NCBI RefSeq assembly: GCF_022846255.1
Contig: NZ_AP025682.1
Reading direction: 5' to 3' (one strand)
Source of the DNA: Escherichia coli
Lineage (GTDB): Bacteria > Pseudomonadota > Gammaproteobacteria > Enterobacterales > Enterobacteriaceae
Length of the DNA: 64,000 nucleotides
A model generated the notes under the pieces. The model did not search any database and was not told the DNA's origin. It saw nothing but the letters and a program-made list of their open reading frames with translations. The position numbers were made by a program, and so were the translations under genes. How positions within the stretch are numbered: the stretch's first letter is position 1; every line of letters starts with the position of its first letter. Below, piece by piece: positions 6,455-31,697 of this stretch.

Positions 6455-6952
6455 TTAGTACAACGGTGACGCCGGTAAAAACAGTTCTGTTAGCAACAGC
6501 GGTTTACCGCTTAATCGCAGGCGGGAACGTCGCCCCCACAGTCCGGCATCACGGCCTATCTCAATAAAGTCCCGGGTTAATGTCGATGATGTGAACAGAT
6601 AGCGTCCTAACGGCGTTTTACCTAATTTTTGTAACGCCAGCTCCGGCCCGCTTAACGTTGACACAGGAACGACGGTACGACCGGCAAGCCACGGTTCACC
6701 ATCGGCACATAACAAAATTTCACGTAACCAGTAACGAGACTCTTTCGGCAGCAGTGGCAGTTCTTCGGGGATTTCATTCTGCTCGACAAACCCTTCGCGG
6801 ATCATCGTCACGCTCACCGTTTTTCCCTGCTGTTCAAAACGTTTTGTCATGGAATCTTCCAGCAACAGCCAGTCGAGCAGTTGCGGCTCCAGGGCAGGGA
6901 TCTCTGTAAAATAGCGCAGCGCACGCAGTTGCGTTAACGCGGGGTGTGACAT
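6455..6952 (-). CDS. ubiC: Chorismate pyruvate-lyase UbiC, 165 aa
   Basis: ORF track 6455..7057; start moved to [44 protein letters not shown]; ubiC-ubiA operon arrangement. Confidence 0.9.
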
Positions 6953-7130
6953 GCCGAACTCTCCGTTACATAACGTAAAGGCATTGTATCGCAGAAAAAT
7001 ATTTACGGGAGATGTAAAGCAAATTAAGTGAACTAATGCGCAACAAAAACGCAACAATAGTACAGGAGGAGAAAAAAAGGTGCGCCAGGAGACGCACCAG
7101 TTGTTGCAAAATCAGCACTGTGGGGCGTAA

Positions 7131-24382: not shown

Positions 24383-25255
24383 TTAACGCCCCTTCTTTTT
24401 GCGCCCCGGCGAGGTAAAACGCTTACCGTTGGACGCCGGGCGACCGCCTTTTTCCGCCGTTTTTTCCATCTTAACGACTGGACGTTTGATGCCTACCGTT
24501 TTCGGTTTGGCCTTCGCTTTAGGTTTTGCCTCGGAAGAGGAATTTTCAATGAGCTTAAAGAGATCGATTAACTCATCGTCGGTTAAATCGCGCCACTCAC
24601 CCAGCGGAATGCCGCTTAAGCTGACGTTCATAATGCGCGTACGTTCCAGCTTTTTCACTTCGTAACCAAAGTGCTCGCACATGCGACGAATCTGACGGTT
24701 CAGCCCCTGCACCAGGGTAATGCGGAAGACAAACGGTGCTTCTTTTTTGACTTTGCACTTTTTAGTTACTGTCCCGAGGATCGGCACTCCCGCCCCCATA
24801 CCACGAATAAATTCATCGGTAATCGGTTTATCAACCGTCACCAGATACTCTTTCTCATGATCGTTACCCGCACGGAGGATCTTATTCACCAGATCGCCGT
24901 GATTGGTGAGGAAAATCAGCCCCTGGGAATCTTTATCCAGGCGGCCAATCGGGAACACGCGTTTGCTGTGGTTAACGAAATCGACAATGTTATCGCGCTC
25001 GCCATCTTCGGTGGTGCTGACAATACCGACGGGCTTGTTCAGGGCGATAAGTACCAAATCTTCGGATTCCCGAGGCTCAATCAACTGACCGTTTACTTTC
25101 ACAACGTCGCCGGGTTTCACCTGATCGCCAATGGTGGCTCGCTTGCCATTAAGGAACACATTGCCTTGCTCGATATAGCGATCCGCTTCGCGGCGTGAGC
25201 AAATTCCGCTTTCGCTGATGTATTTATTTAAACGGACTGATGAGTCGGGCAGCAT
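24383..25255 (-). CDS. rluF: 23S rRNA pseudouridine(2604) synthase RluF, 290 aa
   Basis: S4 RNA-binding N-terminus ([34 protein letters not shown]) and RsuA-type catalytic motif ([17 protein letters not shown]); Lys-rich C-terminal tail. Confidence 0.9.
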
Positions 25256-25602
25256 AAATTCTCCTGTAAAACGCGGAATATACCGTACCTCTTAGCGGGG
25301 AAAAACAGGGTTATGCGGCAACGTCGAAATTAAATGTGATCTGCCACGCCTTTTATCACAAAAGTGTCTCCGGAAGTACGATGCAAATTTGCCTGGCAAA
25401 ATAAGAATAATCAACAAATTACGAATCGCTGCACACCTGTGCTGATGACTACTACGCAGAGAAACAAATGTGCAAGAGAAAGCGCTATTTCCCCCCATGC
25501 AAAGAGTGAAAAATCGCTTTGAAAGGCCATCATGATGGGGTTATATCAGATCAAGCGGTGAGAACGCGTATTTGCACAAATGTGCAGAACCAGGAGGCGG
25601 CA

Positions 25603-26550
25603 ATGGAAAACAGTGACGATATCCGTTTGATTGTGAAGATTGCCCAACTCTATTACGAACAGGATATGACGCAGGCGCAAATTGCGCGCGAACTGGGTAT
25701 TTACCGCACCACCATCAGCCGCTTGCTTAAACGAGGCCGCGATCAGGGAATTGTCACCATCGCCATCAACTATGACTACAACGAAAATCTCTGGCTGGAG
25801 CAGCAAGTGAAGCAAAAGTTTGGCCTGAAAGACGTTGTGGTGGTGTCAGGAAATGATGAGGATGAAGATACTCAACTGGCGATGATGGGGTTACACGGCG
25901 CGCAACTGCTGGATCGCTTGCTGGAACCTGGCGATATTGTCGGTTTTTCCTGGGGCCGCGCGGTGAGCGCACTGGTTGAAAACTTGCCGCAGGCGGGGCA
26001 ATCGCGGCAGTTAATTTGCGTGCCGATTATTGGCGGCCCGTCCGGTAAACTCGAAAGCCGCTATCACGTAAACACATTAACCTACAGCGCGGCAGCGAAG
26101 CTGAAAGGGGAATCGCATCTCGCGGATTTTCCGGCTCTGCTGGATAACCCATTAATTCGTAATGGGATCATGCAGTCTCAGCACTTTAAAACCATCTCTG
26201 CCTACTGGGATAATCTGGATGTCGCCCTGGTGGGAATTGGCTCACCGGCCATTCGCGACGGCGCTAACTGGCATGCGTTTTATGGTGGTGAAGAGAGTGA
26301 CGACCTGAATGCCCGCCAGGTTGCTGGCGATATTTGCTCGCGCTTTTTTGATATTCACGGCGCAATGGTTGAAACGAATATGAGCGAAAAAACACTCTCT
26401 ATCGAAATGAATAAATTAAAGCAGGCACGGTATTCCATTGGCATTGCCATGAGCGAAGAAAAATACAGCGGAATTGTTGGTGCACTGCGTGGAAAATATA
26501 TTAATTGTCTGGTAACGAATAGCAGCACAGCTGAACTATTACTGAAATAA
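25603..26550 (+). CDS. sorC: SorC-family transcriptional regulator of the L-sorbose operon, 315 aa
   Basis: ORF track 25519..26550; ATG at 25603 preceded by caggagg; N-terminal HTH (MTQAQIARELGIYRTTISRLLKRGR) plus sugar-phosphate-binding domain; heads a sorCDFBAME-like gene set. Confidence 0.85.
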   Translation: MENSDDIRLIVKIAQLYYEQDMTQAQIARELGIYRTTISRLLKRGRDQGIVTIAINYDYNENLWLEQQVKQKFGLKDVVVVSGNDEDEDTQLAMMGLHGAQLLDRLLEPGDIVGFSWGRAVSALVENLPQAGQSRQLICVPIIGGPSGKLESRYHVNTLTYSAAAKLKGESHLADFPALLDNPLIRNGIMQSQHFKTISAYWDNLDVALVGIGSPAIRDGANWHAFYGGEESDDLNARQVAGDICSRFFDIHGAMVETNMSEKTLSIEMNKLKQARYSIGIAMSEEKYSGIVGALRGKYINCLVTNSSTAELLLK

Positions 26551-26619
26551 AAATCTTCCCGATGTTTACCGTAATAAAAATTACGGCGGGTCCCTATTAT
26601 CTAAAATCAGGAGTCTGTT

Positions 26620-27426
26620 ATGCAAACGTGGTTAAATTTGCAGGATAAAATCATTATTGTCACCGGTGGCGCATCCGGTATTGGTCTGGCGATTGTAGAG
26701 GAATTATTAGCACAAGGCGCAAACGTACAGATGGTCGATATTCACGGTGGCGATGGTCAATATGAAGGTCATAAAGGCTATCAGTTTTGGCCGACCGATA
26801 TTTCCAGCGCCAAAGAGGTAAATCATACGGTAGCGGAAATTATCCAGCGTTTTGGTCGCATCGACGGTCTGGTCAATAACGCCGGGGTCAATTTCCCGCG
26901 TCTGCTGATCGACGAGAAAGCGCCTGCCGGGCAGTATGAACTCAACGAAGCTGCATTCGAAAAAATGGTCAATATCAACCAGAAAGGCGTTTTTCTGATG
27001 TCGCAGGCGGTGGCGCGACAGATGGTCAAACAACATGATGGCGTGATTGTGAATGTTTCCTCAGAAAGTGGGCTGGAAGGCTCAGAAGGCCAAAGCTGTT
27101 ACGCCGCGACCAAAGCCGCGCTCAATAGCTTCACGCGCTCCTGGTCGAAAGAGCTGGGTAAGCACGGTATCCGTGTGGTCGGTATCGCGCCAGGGATTCT
27201 GGAAAAAACAGGACTGCGCACGCCGGAATATGAAGAAGCGCTGGCGTGGACGCGCAATATCACCGTCGAGCAGCTGCGTGAAGGCTATACCAAAAATTCC
27301 ATTCCTATTGGGCGCGCCGGAAGATTAGCAGAAGTGGCTGATTTTGTTTGTTATCTGCTGTCTGAACGCGCCAGCTATATCACCGGAGTAACCACTAACA
27401 TTGCGGGCGGCAAAACGCGCGGCTAA
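26620..27426 (+). CDS. sorD: Sorbitol-6-phosphate 2-dehydrogenase-like short-chain dehydrogenase (SorD), 268 aa
   Basis: SDR Rossmann motif TGGASGIGLA and catalytic YxxxK (SCYAATKAALNSF); position after sorC. Confidence 0.8.
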   Translation: MQTWLNLQDKIIIVTGGASGIGLAIVEELLAQGANVQMVDIHGGDGQYEGHKGYQFWPTDISSAKEVNHTVAEIIQRFGRIDGLVNNAGVNFPRLLIDEKAPAGQYELNEAAFEKMVNINQKGVFLMSQAVARQMVKQHDGVIVNVSSESGLEGSEGQSCYAATKAALNSFTRSWSKELGKHGIRVVGIAPGILEKTGLRTPEYEEALAWTRNITVEQLREGYTKNSIPIGRAGRLAEVADFVCYLLSERASYITGVTTNIAGGKTRG

Positions 27427-27435
27427 GGAGGCTTT

Positions 27436-27843
27436 ATGGTCAACGCCATTTTTTGTGCGCATGGCAAATTAGCTTGCGCCATGCTGGAATCGGTTCAGAT
27501 GGTGTACGGCGATGCCAGGGTCGAGGCCGTTGAATTTGTGCCCGGCGAGAACGCCGGAGACATTGTGGCAAAGCTGGAGAAGTTAGTAAGCATTCACAAT
27601 CAAGATAAGTGGCTAATCGCCGTGGATTTACAGTGCGGCAGCCCGTGGAATGCGGCAGCGATGCTTGCGATGCGCAATCCTCGTCTGCGGGTAATCAGCG
27701 GCCTTTCTCTGCCGCTGGCGCTCGAACTGGTTGATAACCAGGACAGCATGAATGTTGATGAACTGTGTGAACACCTGACGCAAATCGCAAAGCAAACCTG
27801 CGTCGTCTGGAGACAGGTGGCAACAGCAGAGGAGGATTTCTGA
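27436..27843 (+). CDS. sorF: PTS mannose-family EIIA component for L-sorbose (SorF), 135 aa
   Basis: N-terminal AHGKLA region typical of EIIA-Man phosphohistidine domain; size and operon position. Confidence 0.85.
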   Translation: MVNAIFCAHGKLACAMLESVQMVYGDARVEAVEFVPGENAGDIVAKLEKLVSIHNQDKWLIAVDLQCGSPWNAAAMLAMRNPRLRVISGLSLPLALELVDNQDSMNVDELCEHLTQIAKQTCVVWRQVATAEEDF

Positions 27844-28337
27844 TGAACATTACGCTCGCCCGCATTGATGACCGCCTGATCCACGGCCAGGTCACTACCG
27901 TCTGGTCTAAAGTGGCTAACGCCCAACGCATTATTATCTGCAATGACGAAGTTTATAACGATGAAGTTCGCCGGACATTATTGCGTCAGGCTGCGCCACC
28001 GGGAATGAAGGTTAACGTGGTCAATATTGAAAAAGCCGTCGCGGTTTATCACAACCCGCAATATCAGGACGAAACCGTTTTTTATCTTTTCACTCGCCCA
28101 CAAGATGCCTTAGCAATGGTTCGCCAGGGGGTAAAAATAGGTACCCTGAATATTGGCGGTATGGCCTGGCGTCCTGGTAAGAAACAGTTAACCAAAGCAG
28201 TTTCATTAGATGACGATGATATTAACGCATTTCATGAGTTAAATAATCTTGGCGTCATACTGGATTTACGCGTCGTAGCGTCAGATCCCTCAATCAATAT
28301 TATCGACAAAATAAACGAACAGTTAATCGCAAATTAA
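27843..28337 (+). CDS. sorB: PTS mannose-family EIIB component for L-sorbose (SorB), 164 aa
   Basis: Conserved N-terminus RIDDRLIHGQV of EIIB-Man family; start overlaps sorF stop (ATGA). Confidence 0.85.
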   Translation: MNITLARIDDRLIHGQVTTVWSKVANAQRIIICNDEVYNDEVRRTLLRQAAPPGMKVNVVNIEKAVAVYHNPQYQDETVFYLFTRPQDALAMVRQGVKIGTLNIGGMAWRPGKKQLTKAVSLDDDDINAFHELNNLGVILDLRVVASDPSINIIDKINEQLIAN

Positions 28338-28402
28338 ATAATAGCGCCTGTGTACATATGCTTTAACAGGCAGGGATGACGACACTTAAAAGGTGACAAA
28401 TT

Positions 28403-29200
28403 ATGGAAATAAGTACCCTACAAATCATTGCTATATTTCTTTTTTCCTGTATTGCCGGAATGGGCAGCGTGCTGGATGAATTTCAGACTCATCGTCCGTT
28501 AATTGCCTGTACGGTGATTGGCTTAATTCTCGGTGATTTAAAAACCGGAATTATGCTCGGTGGTACGCTGGAATTGATAGCTCTCGGCTGGATGAACGTC
28601 GGCGCGGCGCAATCTCCGGATTCTGCACTCGCCAGCATAATCTCCGCCATTCTGGTTATCGTTGGTCAGCAAAGCATCGCCACCGGAATCGCCATCGCGT
28701 TGCCTGTGGCTGCGGCAGGCCAGGTGCTGACGGTGTTTGCCCGTACCATCACCGTAGTGTTCCAGCACGCGGCGGATAAAGCAGCGGAAGAAGCACGGTT
28801 TCGCACTCTCGATATTCTGCATGTCTCCGCGCTTGGCGTGCAGGCACTGCGCGTTGCTATTCCGGCACTGATTGTCTCGCTGTTCGTCAGCGCTGATATG
28901 GTGAGCAATATGCTGAGCGCCATTCCCGAATTTGTGACCCGTGGGCTGCAGATTGCTGGCGGTTTTATCGTGGTGGTCGGTTACGCCATGGTGCTTCGCA
29001 TGATGGGCGTGAAATATTTGATGCCTTTCTTTTTCCTCGGTTTCCTCGCAGGTGGCTACCTCGATCTCAGTCTGCTGGCGTTCGGTGGCGTCGGCGTGAT
29101 CATGGCCCTGCTCTACATCCAGTTAAATCCACAGTGGCGTAAAGCTGAACCACATCCCCAGACCACCACTATCACCGCCCTTGACCAACTTGATGATTAA
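28403..29200 (+). CDS. sorA: PTS mannose-family EIIC component for L-sorbose (SorA), 265 aa
   Basis: Multi-TM permease with EIIC-Man-like length, between EIIB and EIID genes. Confidence 0.85.
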   Translation: MEISTLQIIAIFLFSCIAGMGSVLDEFQTHRPLIACTVIGLILGDLKTGIMLGGTLELIALGWMNVGAAQSPDSALASIISAILVIVGQQSIATGIAIALPVAAAGQVLTVFARTITVVFQHAADKAAEEARFRTLDILHVSALGVQALRVAIPALIVSLFVSADMVSNMLSAIPEFVTRGLQIAGGFIVVVGYAMVLRMMGVKYLMPFFFLGFLAGGYLDLSLLAFGGVGVIMALLYIQLNPQWRKAEPHPQTTTITALDQLDD

Positions 29201-29210
29201 CGGAGCCATC

Positions 29211-30035
29211 ATGGAACAGAGAAAAATTACACGCAGCGATCTGGTGAGCATGTTTCTGCGCTCCAACCTGCAACAGGCGTCCTTTAACTTTGAACGTATT
29301 CACGGGCTGGGTTTTTGCTACGACATGATCCCCGCCATCAAGCGACTTTACCCATTAAAAGAGGATCAGGTTGCGGCGCTCAGGCGACACCTGGTGTTCT
29401 TCAATACCACGCCAGCCGTATGTGGCCCGGTCATCGGCGTCACTGCCGCCATGGAAGAGGCGCGGGCCAACGGCGCGGAAATTGATGACGGTACCATTAA
29501 CGGCATCAAAGTCGGTCTGATGGGACCATTGGCAGGAGTTGGCGATCCACTGGTCTGGGGAACGCTGCGCCCGATTACCGCCGCGCTCGGCGCATCTCTG
29601 GCACTTTCGGGCAACATTCTCGGCCCGCTGCTGTTTTTCTTTATTTTCAACGCGGTGCGTCTGGCGATGAAGTGGTATGGCCTACAACTCGGCTTTCGCA
29701 AAGGGGTGAATATCGTCAGCGATATGGGCGGTAATTTGCTGCAAAAACTCACCGAAGGCGCGTCGATTCTCGGACTGTTTGTGATGGGCGTGCTGGTGAC
29801 CAAATGGACGTCAATCAACGTACCGTTGGTGGTTTCACAAACGCATGCCGCCGATGGCTCCACCGTCACCATGACCGTGCAGAACATTCTCGACCAACTT
29901 TGCCCTGGTTTGCTGGCGCTCGGTCTGACGCTACTGATGGTTCGTCTGCTCAACAAAAAAATTAACCCGGTATGGCTGATTTTCGCCCTGTTTGGCTTAG
30001 GGATTATCGGCAATGCGCTGGGCTTCCTGTCCTGA
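29211..30035 (+). CDS. sorM: PTS mannose-family EIID component for L-sorbose (SorM), 274 aa
   Basis: ORF track 29181..30035; ATG at 29211 after cggag SD; EIID-Man-like hydrophilic N-terminus then TM segments. Confidence 0.85.
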   Translation: MEQRKITRSDLVSMFLRSNLQQASFNFERIHGLGFCYDMIPAIKRLYPLKEDQVAALRRHLVFFNTTPAVCGPVIGVTAAMEEARANGAEIDDGTINGIKVGLMGPLAGVGDPLVWGTLRPITAALGASLALSGNILGPLLFFFIFNAVRLAMKWYGLQLGFRKGVNIVSDMGGNLLQKLTEGASILGLFVMGVLVTKWTSINVPLVVSQTHAADGSTVTMTVQNILDQLCPGLLALGLTLLMVRLLNKKINPVWLIFALFGLGIIGNALGFLS

Positions 30036-30086
30036 TTCTTCGCCCCGGCACGACTGCCGGGGCCATCGCTCAACATGAGGTGGTTT

Positions 30087-31316
30087 ATGAAAACAACAGC
30101 TCTGCGTCTTTATGGCAAACGTGACCTGCGTCTGGAAACCTTTGACCTTCCTGAAATGCAGGAGGATGAAATCCTCGCAACGGTGGTCACTGACAGCCTG
30201 TGCCTCTCTTCCTGGAAAGAGGCCAATCTGGGTGAAAACCATAAAAAAGTACCCGACGATGTGGCGACCAATCCCATCATCATCGGCCACGAATTTTGCG
30301 GCGATATTCTGGCCGTGGGTAAAAAGTGGCAGCACAAATTCCAGCCGGGTCAGCGTTATGTGATTCAGGCCAACCTGCAACTCCCCGACCGCCCGGATTG
30401 CCCCGGCTACTCCTTCCCGTGGGTAGGCGGCGAAGCGACGCATGTGGTTATTCCCAACGAGGTCATGGAACATGATTGCCTGCTGGCATACGACGGCGAA
30501 ACCTATTTTGAAGGCTCGCTGGTTGAACCGCTTTCCTGCGTGATTGGCGCGTTCAACGCCAACTATCATCTTCAGGAAGGTAGTTATAACCACACGATGG
30601 GGATTCGCCCGCAAGGGCGCACGCTGATACTCGGCGGCACCGGCCCGATGGGGCTGCTGGCGATTGATTATGCGCTACATGGACCCGTTAACCCGTCGCT
30701 GCTCGTCATTACCGATACCGACAACGACAAATTGAGTTATGCACGCAAGCACTATCCATCAGAACCACAAACACTGATTCATTATCTCAATGCCGCCGAT
30801 GCAGCATTTGATACGTTAATGGCACTGAGTGGCGGTCACGGCTTCGATGATATTTTCGTCTTTGTGCCTAATGAAGGACTGGTGACTCTCGCCTCTTCCT
30901 TGCTGGCGACAGATGGTTGTCTGAATTTCTTCGCCGGACCGCAGGATAAGCACTTCAGCGCGCCAATTAATTTCTACGATGTGCATTATGCATTTACCCA
31001 CTACGTGGGCACGTCAGGCGGCAATACCGACGACATGCGCGCAGCGGTCAAATTGATTGAAGAGAAAAAAGTGCAGGCCGCAAAAGTGGTAACACATATT
31101 CTTGGGCTGAATGCCGCGGGCGAAACCACGCTTGAATTGCCTGCCGTCGGCGGCGGCAAAAAGCTGGTGTATACCGGGAAATACCTGCCGCTGACGTCAC
31201 TCACGCAGATTCAGGATCAAGCACTGGCGGTGATTCTGGCGCATCATCAGGGGATCTGGTCCGGTGAGGCGGAGCAATACCTGCTCGCCCATGCAGAGGC
31301 AATTTCCCATGATTAA
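30087..31316 (+). CDS. sorE: Sorbose-1-phosphate reductase-like zinc-dependent alcohol dehydrogenase family protein (SorE), 409 aa
   Basis: ORF track 30075..31316; ATG at 30087 after gaggtgg; MDR/zinc-ADH-like sequence (GHEFCGDIL, Rossmann GGTGPMG). Confidence 0.8.
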   Translation: MKTTALRLYGKRDLRLETFDLPEMQEDEILATVVTDSLCLSSWKEANLGENHKKVPDDVATNPIIIGHEFCGDILAVGKKWQHKFQPGQRYVIQANLQLPDRPDCPGYSFPWVGGEATHVVIPNEVMEHDCLLAYDGETYFEGSLVEPLSCVIGAFNANYHLQEGSYNHTMGIRPQGRTLILGGTGPMGLLAIDYALHGPVNPSLLVITDTDNDKLSYARKHYPSEPQTLIHYLNAADAAFDTLMALSGGHGFDDIFVFVPNEGLVTLASSLLATDGCLNFFAGPQDKHFSAPINFYDVHYAFTHYVGTSGGNTDDMRAAVKLIEEKKVQAAKVVTHILGLNAAGETTLELPAVGGGKKLVYTGKYLPLTSLTQIQDQALAVILAHHQGIWSGEAEQYLLAHAEAISHD

Positions 31317-31475
31317 TCGCGCTACTTAACTCTGCATGTCGCTGGCTGGTCGCCGCGGCAACTTCGCGACCTGATGTGCGGCTGATTGCTGAAGCGGCAC
31401 AATGTGCACGAGAAGGATAAAAAAACATCAGCGCCTTAAGGGGCGCTCAAATTGGTGGCAAAGTGCACATTGTTT

Positions 31476-31574
31476 ATGCCGGATACGGAATGAAGCCTTA
31501 TCCGGCCTACATAATCTTGAAAATTCAATATATTGCAGTTATCTGGTAGGCCAGGTAAGCGTAGCGCATCAGGC
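31476..31574. repeat. REP/BIME units between sorE and pepE
   Basis: atgccggatacggaatgaagccttatccggcctac and ggtaggccaggtaagcgtagcgcatcaggca. Confidence 0.7.
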
Positions 31575-31697
31575 AATCCTGTGTTTGTCATCAGTCTCAG
31601 CGCCTGTGCAATATGTGACATCGTGAGCCATGTCAGTAAGTGGTTAAATTCGCAGTGGTAGCATTCCTTCCGTGTTTTCTTACTAACCGGAGAAGTA

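What the first reader, a model, noticed from the sequence alone, without database searches (positions are those of the whole stretch)
25464..25586. Palindromic TGCACA-AA-TGTGCA motif overlapping the sorC ribosome-binding region, with related copies upstream and at the far end of the sor block
A 14-bp inverted repeat tgcacaaatgtgca (25573..25586) lies 17 bp upstream of the sorC ATG. The same core acaaatgtgca recurs at 25464..25474. Near-identical palindromic cores gcacaatgtgcac (31397..31409) and gtgcacattgt (31463..31473) occur downstream of sorE, flanking the sorE hairpin. These could be SorC operator sites (autoregulation plus a distal site) or coincidental short palindromes.
Basis: seen in the sequence. 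Interest (0 to 1): 0.35.

Follow-up and report, generated by a model that had tools for sequence, protein, structure and literature searches.

The report
Conserved SorC operator boxes upstream of sorC
The palindrome just upstream of sorC is one of three or four strictly conserved boxes that are almost certainly the DNA sites where the sorbose regulator SorC binds its own operon, whereas the look-alike sequences at the far end of the operon are unconserved chance matches.

Summary
All four sequences are at the stated coordinates. Counts inside the window are no better than chance; comparison with other genomes decides the matter.

In 27 orthologous sorC loci from Enterobacterales (70-99% SorC identity), the 18 bp around 25573-25586 (TTTGCAC-AAAT-GTGCAGA) are the best-conserved stretch of the intergenic region. 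Mean column identity is 0.98, against 0.65 for the rest and 0.64 at fourfold-degenerate sites.

The upstream copy (25464-25474) is conserved as a half-box. Box spacing is fixed at 143 and 112 bp, and 101 bp (11 fewer) in Kluyvera.

The box follows the SorC recognition helix (YRTTISR):
- It is kept in Kluyvera, where sorDFBAME is missing.
- It is present upstream of three Bacillota homologues with the same helix.
- It is absent from 14 homologues with other helices.
- It matches the B. subtilis DeoR half-operator at 12 of 18 positions in the same frame.

The distal pair (31399-31409, 31463-31473) has a spacer one base shorter. One copy sits in the remnant of a decayed eighth gene. Both are polymorphic within E. 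coli and neither is conserved elsewhere, so they are not operators.

No binding data or transcription start exists, and the primary SorC papers could not be read.

The parts
25571..25588 (.). It is the proximal, near-perfect 18-bp palindrome, centred about +26 from the inferred transcription start and 5 nt before the Shine-Dalgarno sequence.
   Evidence: Most conserved 18-bp stretch of the intergenic alignment (0.98). The core is identical in 25 of the 27 other loci. No change in the O157:H7 and SB0258h1 strains.
25459..25476 (.). It is a half-box: the right arm GTGCAA is conserved and the left arm is degenerate. It is centred 112 bp upstream of O1.
   Evidence: CAAATGTGCAA is conserved (0.91). 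It is a full palindrome, TTTGCACAAACGTGCAAA, in Kluyvera. The distance to O1 is 112 bp in 25 of 28 sequences, 113 in Serratia and 101 in the two Kluyvera loci.
25428..25445 (.). Box O3: GCTGCAC-ACCT-GTGCTGA, core GCACACCTGTGC at 25431-25442. It is a full palindrome 31 bp upstream of O2 and 143 bp upstream of O1.
   Evidence: Arm identity is 0.97 and centre identity 0.51 across 28 sequences. GCAC-N4-GTGC sits at this fixed position in 24 of 28 sequences; L004 and L013 each carry one arm substitution, and the two Kluyvera loci lack a full box here.
25356..25367 (.). Possible box O4: TCACAAAAGTGT. It keeps only the inner CAC-N4-GTG of the box. Status uncertain.
   Evidence: Conserved (0.92), but it matches only 3 of 6 positions per arm. 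It is adjacent to a CRP-like site.
25519..25547 (+). Inferred sor promoter: -35 TTGAAA (25519-25524), 17-bp spacer, -10 TATATC (25542-25547). An A-rich GAAAAAT lies upstream. The start is expected near 25553-25555.
   Evidence: My position-weight scan puts this candidate at the same aligned position, among the top four, in 26 of 28 loci. The -10 block is 0.99 conserved. The tool's stricter consensus scan found no promoter here. No experimental start site was available.
25592..25605 (+). Shine-Dalgarno sequence AGGAGG (25592-25597) and sorC start codon (25603).
   Evidence: Read directly from the sequence.
25603..26550 (+). sorC, the regulator presumed to bind the boxes. The DNA-binding domain is residues 1-55, with recognition helix GIYRTTISRLLKR.
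   Evidence: E = 1e-182 against K. pneumoniae SorC (PDB 2W48), with one difference (D47E) in residues 1-62. The GIYRTTISRLLKR stretch is identical in all 27 orthologues.
31399..31409 (+). Distal site 1, ACAATGTGCAC. Not an operator. It lies in the 3' remnant of a decayed eighth sor gene.
Evidence: It aligns to the ...AEAARFAREG* coding end of the intact 270-aa gene in other genera. It has N3 spacing.
31463..31473 (-). Distal site 2, the exact reverse complement of site 1. Not an operator.
   Evidence: It reads GTACACATTGT in 3 of 5 E. coli strains and GTGCACGTTGT in L004. The changes do not compensate those in site 1.

Best explanation
The palindrome at 25573-25586 is the core of an 18-bp SorC operator box with consensus TTTGCAC-N4-GTGCAAA.

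Inferred mechanism:
- Each palindrome is bound by a pair of SorC helix-turn-helix domains, and SorC acts as a tetramer (a dimer of dimers).
- O3 and O2 lie about 117 and 86 bp upstream of the inferred transcription start. O1 lies about 26 bp downstream of it, in the sorC leader.
- Without sorbose, SorC on O1 represses the whole sorCDFBAME transcript, including its own gene. It probably cooperates with SorC on O2/O3 through a DNA loop of 112-143 bp that encloses the promoter.
- With inducer, that cooperativity is lost, and SorC remaining at O2/O3 activates the weak promoter.

Shown here: the boxes, their conservation, their fixed spacing and their association with the SorC recognition helix. 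Inferred: binding by SorC, the promoter position, the loop and the division of labour between sites.

The distal look-alikes downstream of sorE are chance or decay products, not part of the system.
For: 1. Conservation. Across the window plus 27 orthologous loci, O1 is the best-conserved 18-bp stretch (0.98). The rest of the spacer scores 0.65. Sixteen fourfold-degenerate sites in the adjacent DNA-binding-domain codons score 0.64, and none is invariant.
2. Pattern of variation. In O3 the arms are 0.97 conserved but the 3 central bases only 0.51, with no compensatory arm changes. This is the pattern of a protein-contacted palindrome, not of an RNA stem.
3. Restriction. GCAC-N4-GTGC occurs at fixed positions upstream of sorC in every enterobacterial locus. 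Only 3 other copies were found in about 440 kb. The relaxed 16-mer is not enriched in the window: 20 found, 39 expected.
4. Spacing. Centre distances are O3-O1 = 143 bp in 25 of 28 sequences and O2-O1 = 112 bp in 25 of 28. Kluyvera has 101 bp, exactly 11 bp (one helical turn) less.
5. Association with the regulator rather than the catabolic genes.
   - The boxes persist in Kluyvera, where sorDFBAME is missing.
   - Three Bacillota homologues (43-47% identity) keep the helix YRTTISR, sit next to different genes, and carry TTGCACAATTGTGC upstream with a second box 19-20 bp away.
   - Fourteen more distant homologues with other helices have no box within 300 bp.
6. Family resemblance. The O1 consensus matches the crystallised B. 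subtilis DeoR half-operator ATTGAACAAAATTTCAAT at 12 of 18 positions in the same frame (P about 0.002 against shuffles; operator sequence from PMC11229326). The DeoR base-contacting arginines R34 and R39 align with conserved SorC R35 and R40.
7. Published context.
   - SorC is described as a repressor without L-sorbose and an activator with it (PMC12817954, citing Woehrl 1990).
   - The SorC crystal is a tetramer able to hold two DNA sites (PMC2943609).
   - A downstream operator has a family precedent: CggR at +32 to +77 (PMC11229326).
8. Within E. coli. All 9 and 7 substitutions in two strains fall outside the boxes.
Against: - No protein-DNA binding data exist for these sites.
- The transcription start is not known. 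The promoter is inferred from a weak but positionally conserved match, and its -10 (TATATC) lacks the usual final T. If the real start lay upstream, near 25418, all boxes would be downstream of it and the activator role would be unexplained.
- O3-O2 spacing is 31 bp (about 3 turns). The SorC crystal tetramer was judged compatible with sites about 2 turns apart, and DeoR and the Bacillota loci use 19-22 bp.
- The loop is suggested only by fixed distances, which could also reflect a low indel rate among related sequences.
- The primary papers (Woehrl 1990, Wehmeier 1992, de Sanctis 2009) could not be read.
Confidence: 0.85

Rival explanations
1. The palindrome acts as an RNA hairpin in the sorC leader, next to the Shine-Dalgarno sequence, and controls translation or mRNA stability rather than serving as a DNA site.
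For: O1 lies in the probable 5' leader and abuts the Shine-Dalgarno sequence in most genera. The leader RNA can form a 7-bp hairpin over the palindrome.
Against: - The leader fold is not unusual (z = -1.4; 17 of 200 shuffles fold as well).
- The same box recurs at O3 and O2, upstream of the inferred promoter, and in Bacillota over promoter hexamers.
- Arms never show compensatory changes, and the O1 'loop' is as invariant as the stem.
- The hairpin does not include the Shine-Dalgarno sequence in this window.
Confidence: 0.05
2. The boxes are binding sites for some other transcription factor, for example a global carbon regulator, and not for SorC.
For: Binding by SorC was not tested. The region also holds other conserved blocks, including a CRP-like site at 25332-25353.
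Against: - The box follows the sorC gene and its invariant recognition helix into contexts with different neighbouring genes (Kluyvera, three Bacillota).
- It is absent where the helix differs.
- It resembles the operator of the nearest characterised homologue, DeoR.
- It is not scattered through the 64-kb window, as a global regulator's site might be.
Confidence: 0.07
3. All the palindromes, proximal and distal, are coincidental short repeats.
For: Within-window counts are at chance level.
Against: - For the proximal boxes this is excluded by invariance across 28 sequences, against 0.64-0.65 background identity, and by fixed positions.
- For the distal pair it is the best explanation.
Confidence: 0.02
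4. The distal pair is functional as RNA: the two 11-mers pair to form a long stem that encloses the terminator hairpin at the 3' end of the sor transcript.
For: In this window 31385-31490 folds to -35.6 kcal/mol with the 11-mers paired (z = -4.2; no shuffle folds as well).
Against: - Four other E. coli strains carry substitutions in one or the other 11-mer that break pairs without compensation.
- L004 and other genera lack the complementarity.
- One arm is pseudogene debris.
Confidence: 0.08

Closest known systems
[quoted passage not shown]
   Same: - It has the same 18-bp frame, with 6-7-bp arms around a 4-bp A/T centre, and 12 of 18 positions match the O1 consensus.
- The half-site differs essentially at one base: TTGAAC in DeoR, TTGCAC in SorC.
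- It is composite: one full palindrome plus a second site in which only the outer arm is good, like O3 plus O2.
- The regulator is a homologous tetramer with the same two base-contacting arginines.
   Different: - DeoR's two half-operators are 22 bp apart and lie at -60 to -21. Here O3-O2 are 31 bp apart and far upstream, and there is an extra isolated perfect box (O1) downstream of the promoter.
- DeoR is a pure repressor encoded outside the operon. SorC is a repressor and activator, and its gene is the first gene of its own operon.
B. subtilis CggR operator of the gapA operon (SorC family, winged-helix subclass)
   Same: - The regulator is the first gene of the operon it controls.
- The operator lies between the transcription start and the start codon (+32 to +77), as inferred for O1.
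- A tetramer binds two half-operators and the inducer reduces cooperativity.
   Different: - It has a different DNA-binding domain and an unrelated operator sequence based on direct repeats.
- It has a single 45-bp operator and no upstream sites.
Looping sugar-operon repressors with sites either side of the promoter (GalR, LacI, E. coli DeoR, AraC; from general knowledge)
   Same: Operators lie upstream and downstream of the promoter at fixed, phase-conserved distances of about 100-150 bp, bound by a multimeric regulator.
   Different: These are unrelated protein families. Looping here is only inferred from the geometry.

Membership tests
Operator of a SorC/DeoR-type (helix-turn-helix subclass) regulator | Adjacent gene encodes a SorC-family regulator with an N-terminal helix-turn-helix domain and a sugar-phosphate-binding domain | tested here: met
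   E = 1e-182 against K. pneumoniae SorC (PDB 2W48). Matches B. subtilis DeoR (8R7Y) and LsrR. The NCBIfam DeoR model matches at E = 2.6e-63, below its equivalog cutoff.
Operator of a SorC/DeoR-type (helix-turn-helix subclass) regulator | Palindromic half-operator of about 16-18 bp with an A/T-rich centre, sized for one dimer of DNA-binding domains | tested here: met
   TTTGCAC-AAAT-GTGCAAA. It matches DeoR OL18 at 12 of 18 positions in the same frame.
Operator of a SorC/DeoR-type (helix-turn-helix subclass) regulator | A second half-operator about two helical turns away, so that a tetramer binds both | tested here: inconclusive
   O3-O2 are 31 bp apart (about 3 turns) in Enterobacterales. The spacing is 19-20 bp in the Bacillota homologues and 22 bp in DeoR. 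The SorC crystal suggested about 2 turns. No conserved partner lies about 21 bp from O1.
Operator of a SorC/DeoR-type (helix-turn-helix subclass) regulator | Located in or next to the promoter of the regulated operon | tested here: met
   All boxes lie in the 347-bp rluF-sorC spacer. Their positions relative to the promoter rest on an inferred, not mapped, start.
Operator of a SorC/DeoR-type (helix-turn-helix subclass) regulator | Conserved in orthologous promoters and co-varying with the recognition helix | tested here: met
Operator of a SorC/DeoR-type (helix-turn-helix subclass) regulator | Specific binding by the regulator, relieved or altered by the effector | not testable with these tools
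   Needs a gel-shift assay or footprint with purified SorC, with and without sorbose 1-phosphate.
SorC operator (distal sites 31399-31409 and 31463-31473) | Box geometry GCAC-N4-GTGC and conservation in orthologues | tested here: not met
   N3 spacing. Not present in L004 or other genera. Polymorphic within E. coli.
CRP site (side feature 25332-25353) | TGTGA-N6-TCACA with a promoter-compatible position | tested here: inconclusive
   By eye, 16 of 22 positions match the consensus, with a perfect left half; it is conserved (0.82). However, it lies about 211 bp from the inferred sor start.

The most novel reading that the evidence does not exclude
The sor control region is a three-site, loop-forming switch. 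A single SorC tetramer bridges a perfect box in the leader (O1) and a composite O3/O2 site upstream. Effector-driven loss of that bridge converts the same protein from repressor to activator.

The box TTGCAC-N4-GTGCAA would also be a portable recognition code for every SorC-family regulator carrying the YRTTISR helix, from Enterobacterales to Bacillota. It differs from the DeoR code by one base per half-site. This would allow regulon prediction for uncharacterised homologues and a direct test of how one residue change retunes specificity.
Probability: 0.35. Interest if true: 0.55.

Novelty: new member of a known kind. Interest (0 to 1): 0.42.

Why it matters
SorC gives its name to a large family of sugar and quorum-sensing regulators, and its crystal structure has been known since 2009. 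Even so, a 2010 paper states that CggR and B. subtilis DeoR were then the only family members with an identified DNA site, and I found no later description of a SorC operator in the searchable literature.

A defined box with three positions gives concrete probes for binding and structural work. It offers an explanation to test for how one protein both represses and activates. It links the SorC and DeoR recognition codes through a single-base difference. The sor operon is also a marker of high-risk E. coli lineages (PMC12817954), so its control region has some applied interest.

The result is what a specialist would expect in kind: an autoregulated repressor with palindromic sites.

Tried and rejected
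- Within-window motif counts are uninformative, at chance level.
- The tool's consensus promoter scan found nothing in 25200-25700. I replaced it with a weight-matrix scan across orthologues.
- Literature: Woehrl 1990, de Sanctis 2009 and Wehmeier 1992 are not held. Full-text searches for the SorC operator, the motif string, RegPrecise/SorC family, sorCDFBAME and sorC with a transcription start gave nothing on a SorC site.
- An exact-sequence look-up of the K. pneumoniae 2W48 protein, to fetch its promoter, found no record. Three other Klebsiella species were used instead.
- Distal sites as a remote operator: rejected.
- Distal sites as a conserved RNA stem: rejected as a conserved feature, although the fold is strong in this particular strain.
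- RNA-hairpin reading of O1: rejected as the main explanation (plus the pattern of variation).
- A second promoter candidate uses the O1 left arm TTGCAC as its -35, with AAAAAT as its -10 (21 hits, some loci counted twice). I rejected it for sorC because the -10 overlaps the start-codon region and the candidate is absent in the E. coli group.
- An upstream promoter near 25406-25411 (AATAAT/CAGAAT) was considered. It has no acceptable -35 and would leave the activator role unexplained, but it is not excluded.

Full report
**Observation**

- TGCACAAATGTGCA lies at 25573-25586, with 16 nt between it and the sorC ATG at 25603.
- ACAAATGTGCA lies at 25464-25474.
- GCACAATGTGCAC lies at 31397-31409 and GTGCACATTGT at 31463-31473. 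These two share an 11-mer in reverse complement.

Compared with E. coli K-12, the sor block (about 25291-31607) is an insertion in the rluF-pepE spacer. It is present in 2865 of 5426 complete E. coli genomes.

Inside the window alone the repeats are no more frequent than chance. The question had to be settled by comparison with other genomes.

**Comparative evidence for the proximal sites**

A scan of one genome per species returned 27 enterobacterial sorC loci with 70-99% protein identity. They come from Escherichia, Pseudocitrobacter, Citrobacter, Klebsiella, Raoultella, Mangrovibacter, Pantoea, Serratia, Cedecea, Entomohabitans, Enterobacter and Kluyvera.

In the alignment of the 330 bp upstream of sorC, the 18 bp TTTGCAC-AAAT-GTGCAGA (25571-25588) are the most conserved stretch of the whole spacer.
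- Mean column identity there is 0.98.
- The rest of the spacer scores 0.65.
- Sixteen fourfold-degenerate sites in the adjacent, protein-invariant codons score 0.64, and none is invariant.

Only its right arm is a good half-site, except in Kluyvera, where it is a full palindrome (TTTGCACAAACGTGCAAA).

Its GCAC/GTGC arms are 0.97 conserved, while the centre varies freely (ACCT, ATCT, ATAT, AAAC, AAAG, AAAA, AAAT; identity 0.51).

That pattern is fixed arms, a free centre and no compensatory changes. It is what a protein-contacted palindrome shows, not an RNA stem.

A possible fourth, weaker box (TCACAAAAGTGT, 25356-25367) is also conserved, but it keeps only the inner CAC/GTG.

GCAC-N4-GTGC is essentially confined to these positions. 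Only three other copies occur in about 440 kb of window plus enterobacterial loci. The relaxed 16-mer is not enriched in the window.

Centre-to-centre distances are fixed.
- O3-O1 is 143 bp in 25 of 28 sequences.
- O2-O1 is 112 bp in 25 of 28 sequences.
- Serratia has one extra base.
- Kluyvera has 101 bp, exactly 11 bp (one helical turn) less.

Two divergent E. coli strains carry 9 and 7 substitutions in this 551-bp region. All of them fall outside the boxes.

**Who binds the boxes**

The box follows the regulator, not the catabolic genes.
- The SorC recognition-helix stretch GIYRTTISRLLKR is identical in all 27 orthologues. Residues 1-62 differ at one position (D47E) from the crystallised K. 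pneumoniae SorC, PDB 2W48.
- In Kluyvera the locus is rluF-sorC-(eighth gene)-pepE. sorDFBAME is missing, yet the boxes remain.
- Three Bacillota homologues (Terrilactibacillus, Pseudalkalibacillus, Paenibacillus; 43-47% identity) keep the helix YRTTISR. They sit next to different genes: a GFO/IDH/MocA oxidoreductase and an RpiA-like gene. They carry TTGCACAATTGTGC upstream, with a second box 19-20 bp away, over probable promoter hexamers or just before the Shine-Dalgarno sequence.
- Fourteen more distant homologues with other helices (for example SRVKVYR) have no box, even in relaxed form, within 300 bp upstream.

The O1 consensus aligns without gaps to the crystallised left half-operator of B. 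subtilis DeoR, ATTGAACAAAATTTCAAT, at 12 of 18 positions (P about 0.002 against shuffles; operator from PMC11229326). The half-site difference is essentially TTGAAC versus TTGCAC.

The two DeoR arginines reported to contact bases (R34, R39) align with conserved SorC R35 and R40.

DeoR's right half-operator has one good outer arm and one degenerate arm, as O2 does.

**How it probably works (inferred)**

A weight-matrix scan across the orthologues places one sigma-70-like candidate at the same aligned position in 26 of 28 loci.
- The -35 is TTGAAA (25519-25524), followed by a 17-bp spacer.
- The -10 is TATATC (25542-25547).
- An A-rich tract lies upstream.

The -10 block is 0.99 conserved. However, the hexamer is imperfect, and the tool's stricter scan finds no promoter.

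With a start near 25554, O1 is centred at about +26, O2 at -86 and O3 at -117.

SorC is reported to repress without L-sorbose and activate with it (PMC12817954, citing Woehrl 1990). Its crystal is a tetramer with two pairs of DNA-binding domains (PMC2943609).

The simplest model has four steps.
1. SorC on O1 blocks the sorCDFBAME transcript, which includes its own gene.
2. It is probably stabilised by contact with SorC on O3/O2 through a loop that encloses the promoter.
3. The inducer breaks that cooperativity, as proposed for CggR and DeoR.
4. SorC at O3/O2 then helps RNA polymerase at the weak promoter.

A leader-located operator has a family precedent: CggR at +32 to +77.

Weak points of the model:
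- The start site is not mapped.
- O3-O2 are 31 bp apart, whereas the crystal suggested about two turns, and DeoR and the Bacillota loci use 19-22 bp.
- The loop is inferred only from conserved distances.

**The distal pair**

The distal sites are not operators.
- Their half-sites are one base closer together (GCAC-N3-GTGC).
- In most genera a 270-aa shikimate-dehydrogenase-like gene follows sorE, with its ATG overlapping the sorE stop.
- In this window that gene is reduced to a remnant (31309-31420). It has a stop after six codons and about 700 bp deleted.
- Distal site 1 lies in the remnant's 3' end. It corresponds to ...GCAAGGTTTGCGCGAG... (AARFAR) in intact genes.
- The closest relative with the intact gene (L004) has GCACGATTTGCGC and GTGCACGTTGT, which are neither palindromic nor complementary.
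- Among five E. coli strains both sites are polymorphic, and the changes break rather than preserve complementarity.

In this particular strain the two 11-mers can pair around the terminator hairpin (-35.6 kcal/mol, z = -4.2). That fold is not conserved.

**Rivals**

- An RNA-hairpin role for O1 is unlikely. The leader fold is ordinary (z = -1.4). The same box also lies outside the inferred transcript and over promoter elements in Bacillota.
- Another transcription factor is unlikely, given the association with the SorC helix.
- Chance is excluded for O1-O3 and is the best account of the distal pair.

**Novelty**

SorC, its autoregulation and its dual role are known. The operator appears not to be.
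- The 2024 structural paper (PMC11229326) discusses only the DeoR and CggR operators.
- No held paper contains the motif in a sor context.

The primary papers could not be read, so prior description of these repeats cannot be excluded.

I class the finding as a new member of a known kind: a DeoR-type operator with an unusual three-site layout.

Noticed in passing
window 31309-31420: Remnant of an eighth sor gene, a 270-aa shikimate-dehydrogenase-like protein (Pfam Shikimate_dh_N). Its ATG overlaps the sorE stop. It is intact in Pseudocitrobacter, Citrobacter, Klebsiella, Raoultella, Serratia and one divergent E. coli (L004). Here it has a stop after 6 codons and about 700 bp deleted. The published operon name sorCDFBAME has only seven genes.
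   Followed up: partly
L023 5909-9698 and L024 (Kluyvera): At the same chromosomal site (rluF...pepE), Kluyvera keeps only sorC and the eighth gene. sorDFBAME is absent, which is the reciprocal loss to E. coli. Both SorC boxes are retained, 101 bp apart.
   Followed up: partly
window 25291-31607: The whole sor block is an insertion relative to K-12. It replaces about 95 bp of the rluF-pepE spacer and is present in 2865 of 5426 complete E. coli genomes.
   Followed up: partly
window 25332-25353: Conserved CRP-like site AAATGTGATCTGCCACGCCTTT, with a perfect left half and 16 of 22 positions matching the consensus by eye. It lies about 211 bp upstream of the inferred sor start, too far for ordinary CRP activation unless DNA is looped or another promoter is used.
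   Followed up: no
window 25385-25415, minus strand: Candidate divergent promoter for rluF: TTGATT (25415-25410), 18 bp, then CAAATT. It sits at the same aligned position in 21 loci (mean score 7.2). rluF needs a promoter inside the left end of the sor island in sor-positive strains.
   Followed up: no
window 25536-25553: GGGGTTATATCAGATCAA is conserved (0.95) well beyond what a -10 hexamer alone would need. It contains a GATC site. It may hold a further binding site or a constrained start region.
   Followed up: no
window 31430-31447: Hairpin AGCGCC-TTAAGG-GGCGCT. A similar GAGCGCC-N6-GGCGCTC hairpin follows the eighth gene in several other genera (for example Pseudocitrobacter, Citrobacter, Raoultella and Kluyvera), so it is probably the ancestral operon terminator. 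On the plus strand it lacks a T-run. The scan flags it as terminator-like only on the minus strand, because of the A-run at 31420-31426.
   Followed up: partly
window 31479-31512 and 31540-31575: Two REP-like palindromic units (GCCGGATACGG...CCTTATCCGGCCTAC and GTAGGCCAGGTAAGCGTAGCGCATCAGGC) lie between the sor terminator and pepE. They were recognised from general knowledge, not tested.
   Followed up: no
L027 6825-6860, L028 about 6950-6990, L029 6885-6920: Bacillota SorC homologues with the same recognition helix carry TTGCACAATTGTGC boxes, with a second box 19-20 bp away, next to genes unrelated to sorbose (GFO/IDH/MocA oxidoreductase, RpiA-like). This suggests a wider regulator subfamily sharing one DNA code.
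   Followed up: partly
L010 (K. spallanzanii), about 25 bp after the eighth gene's stop: GCACAATGTGC, the same N3 palindrome as the window's distal site 1, occurs next to a CCCTCTCCC...GGGAGAGGG repeat element. It is probably coincidence and was not examined further.
   Followed up: no
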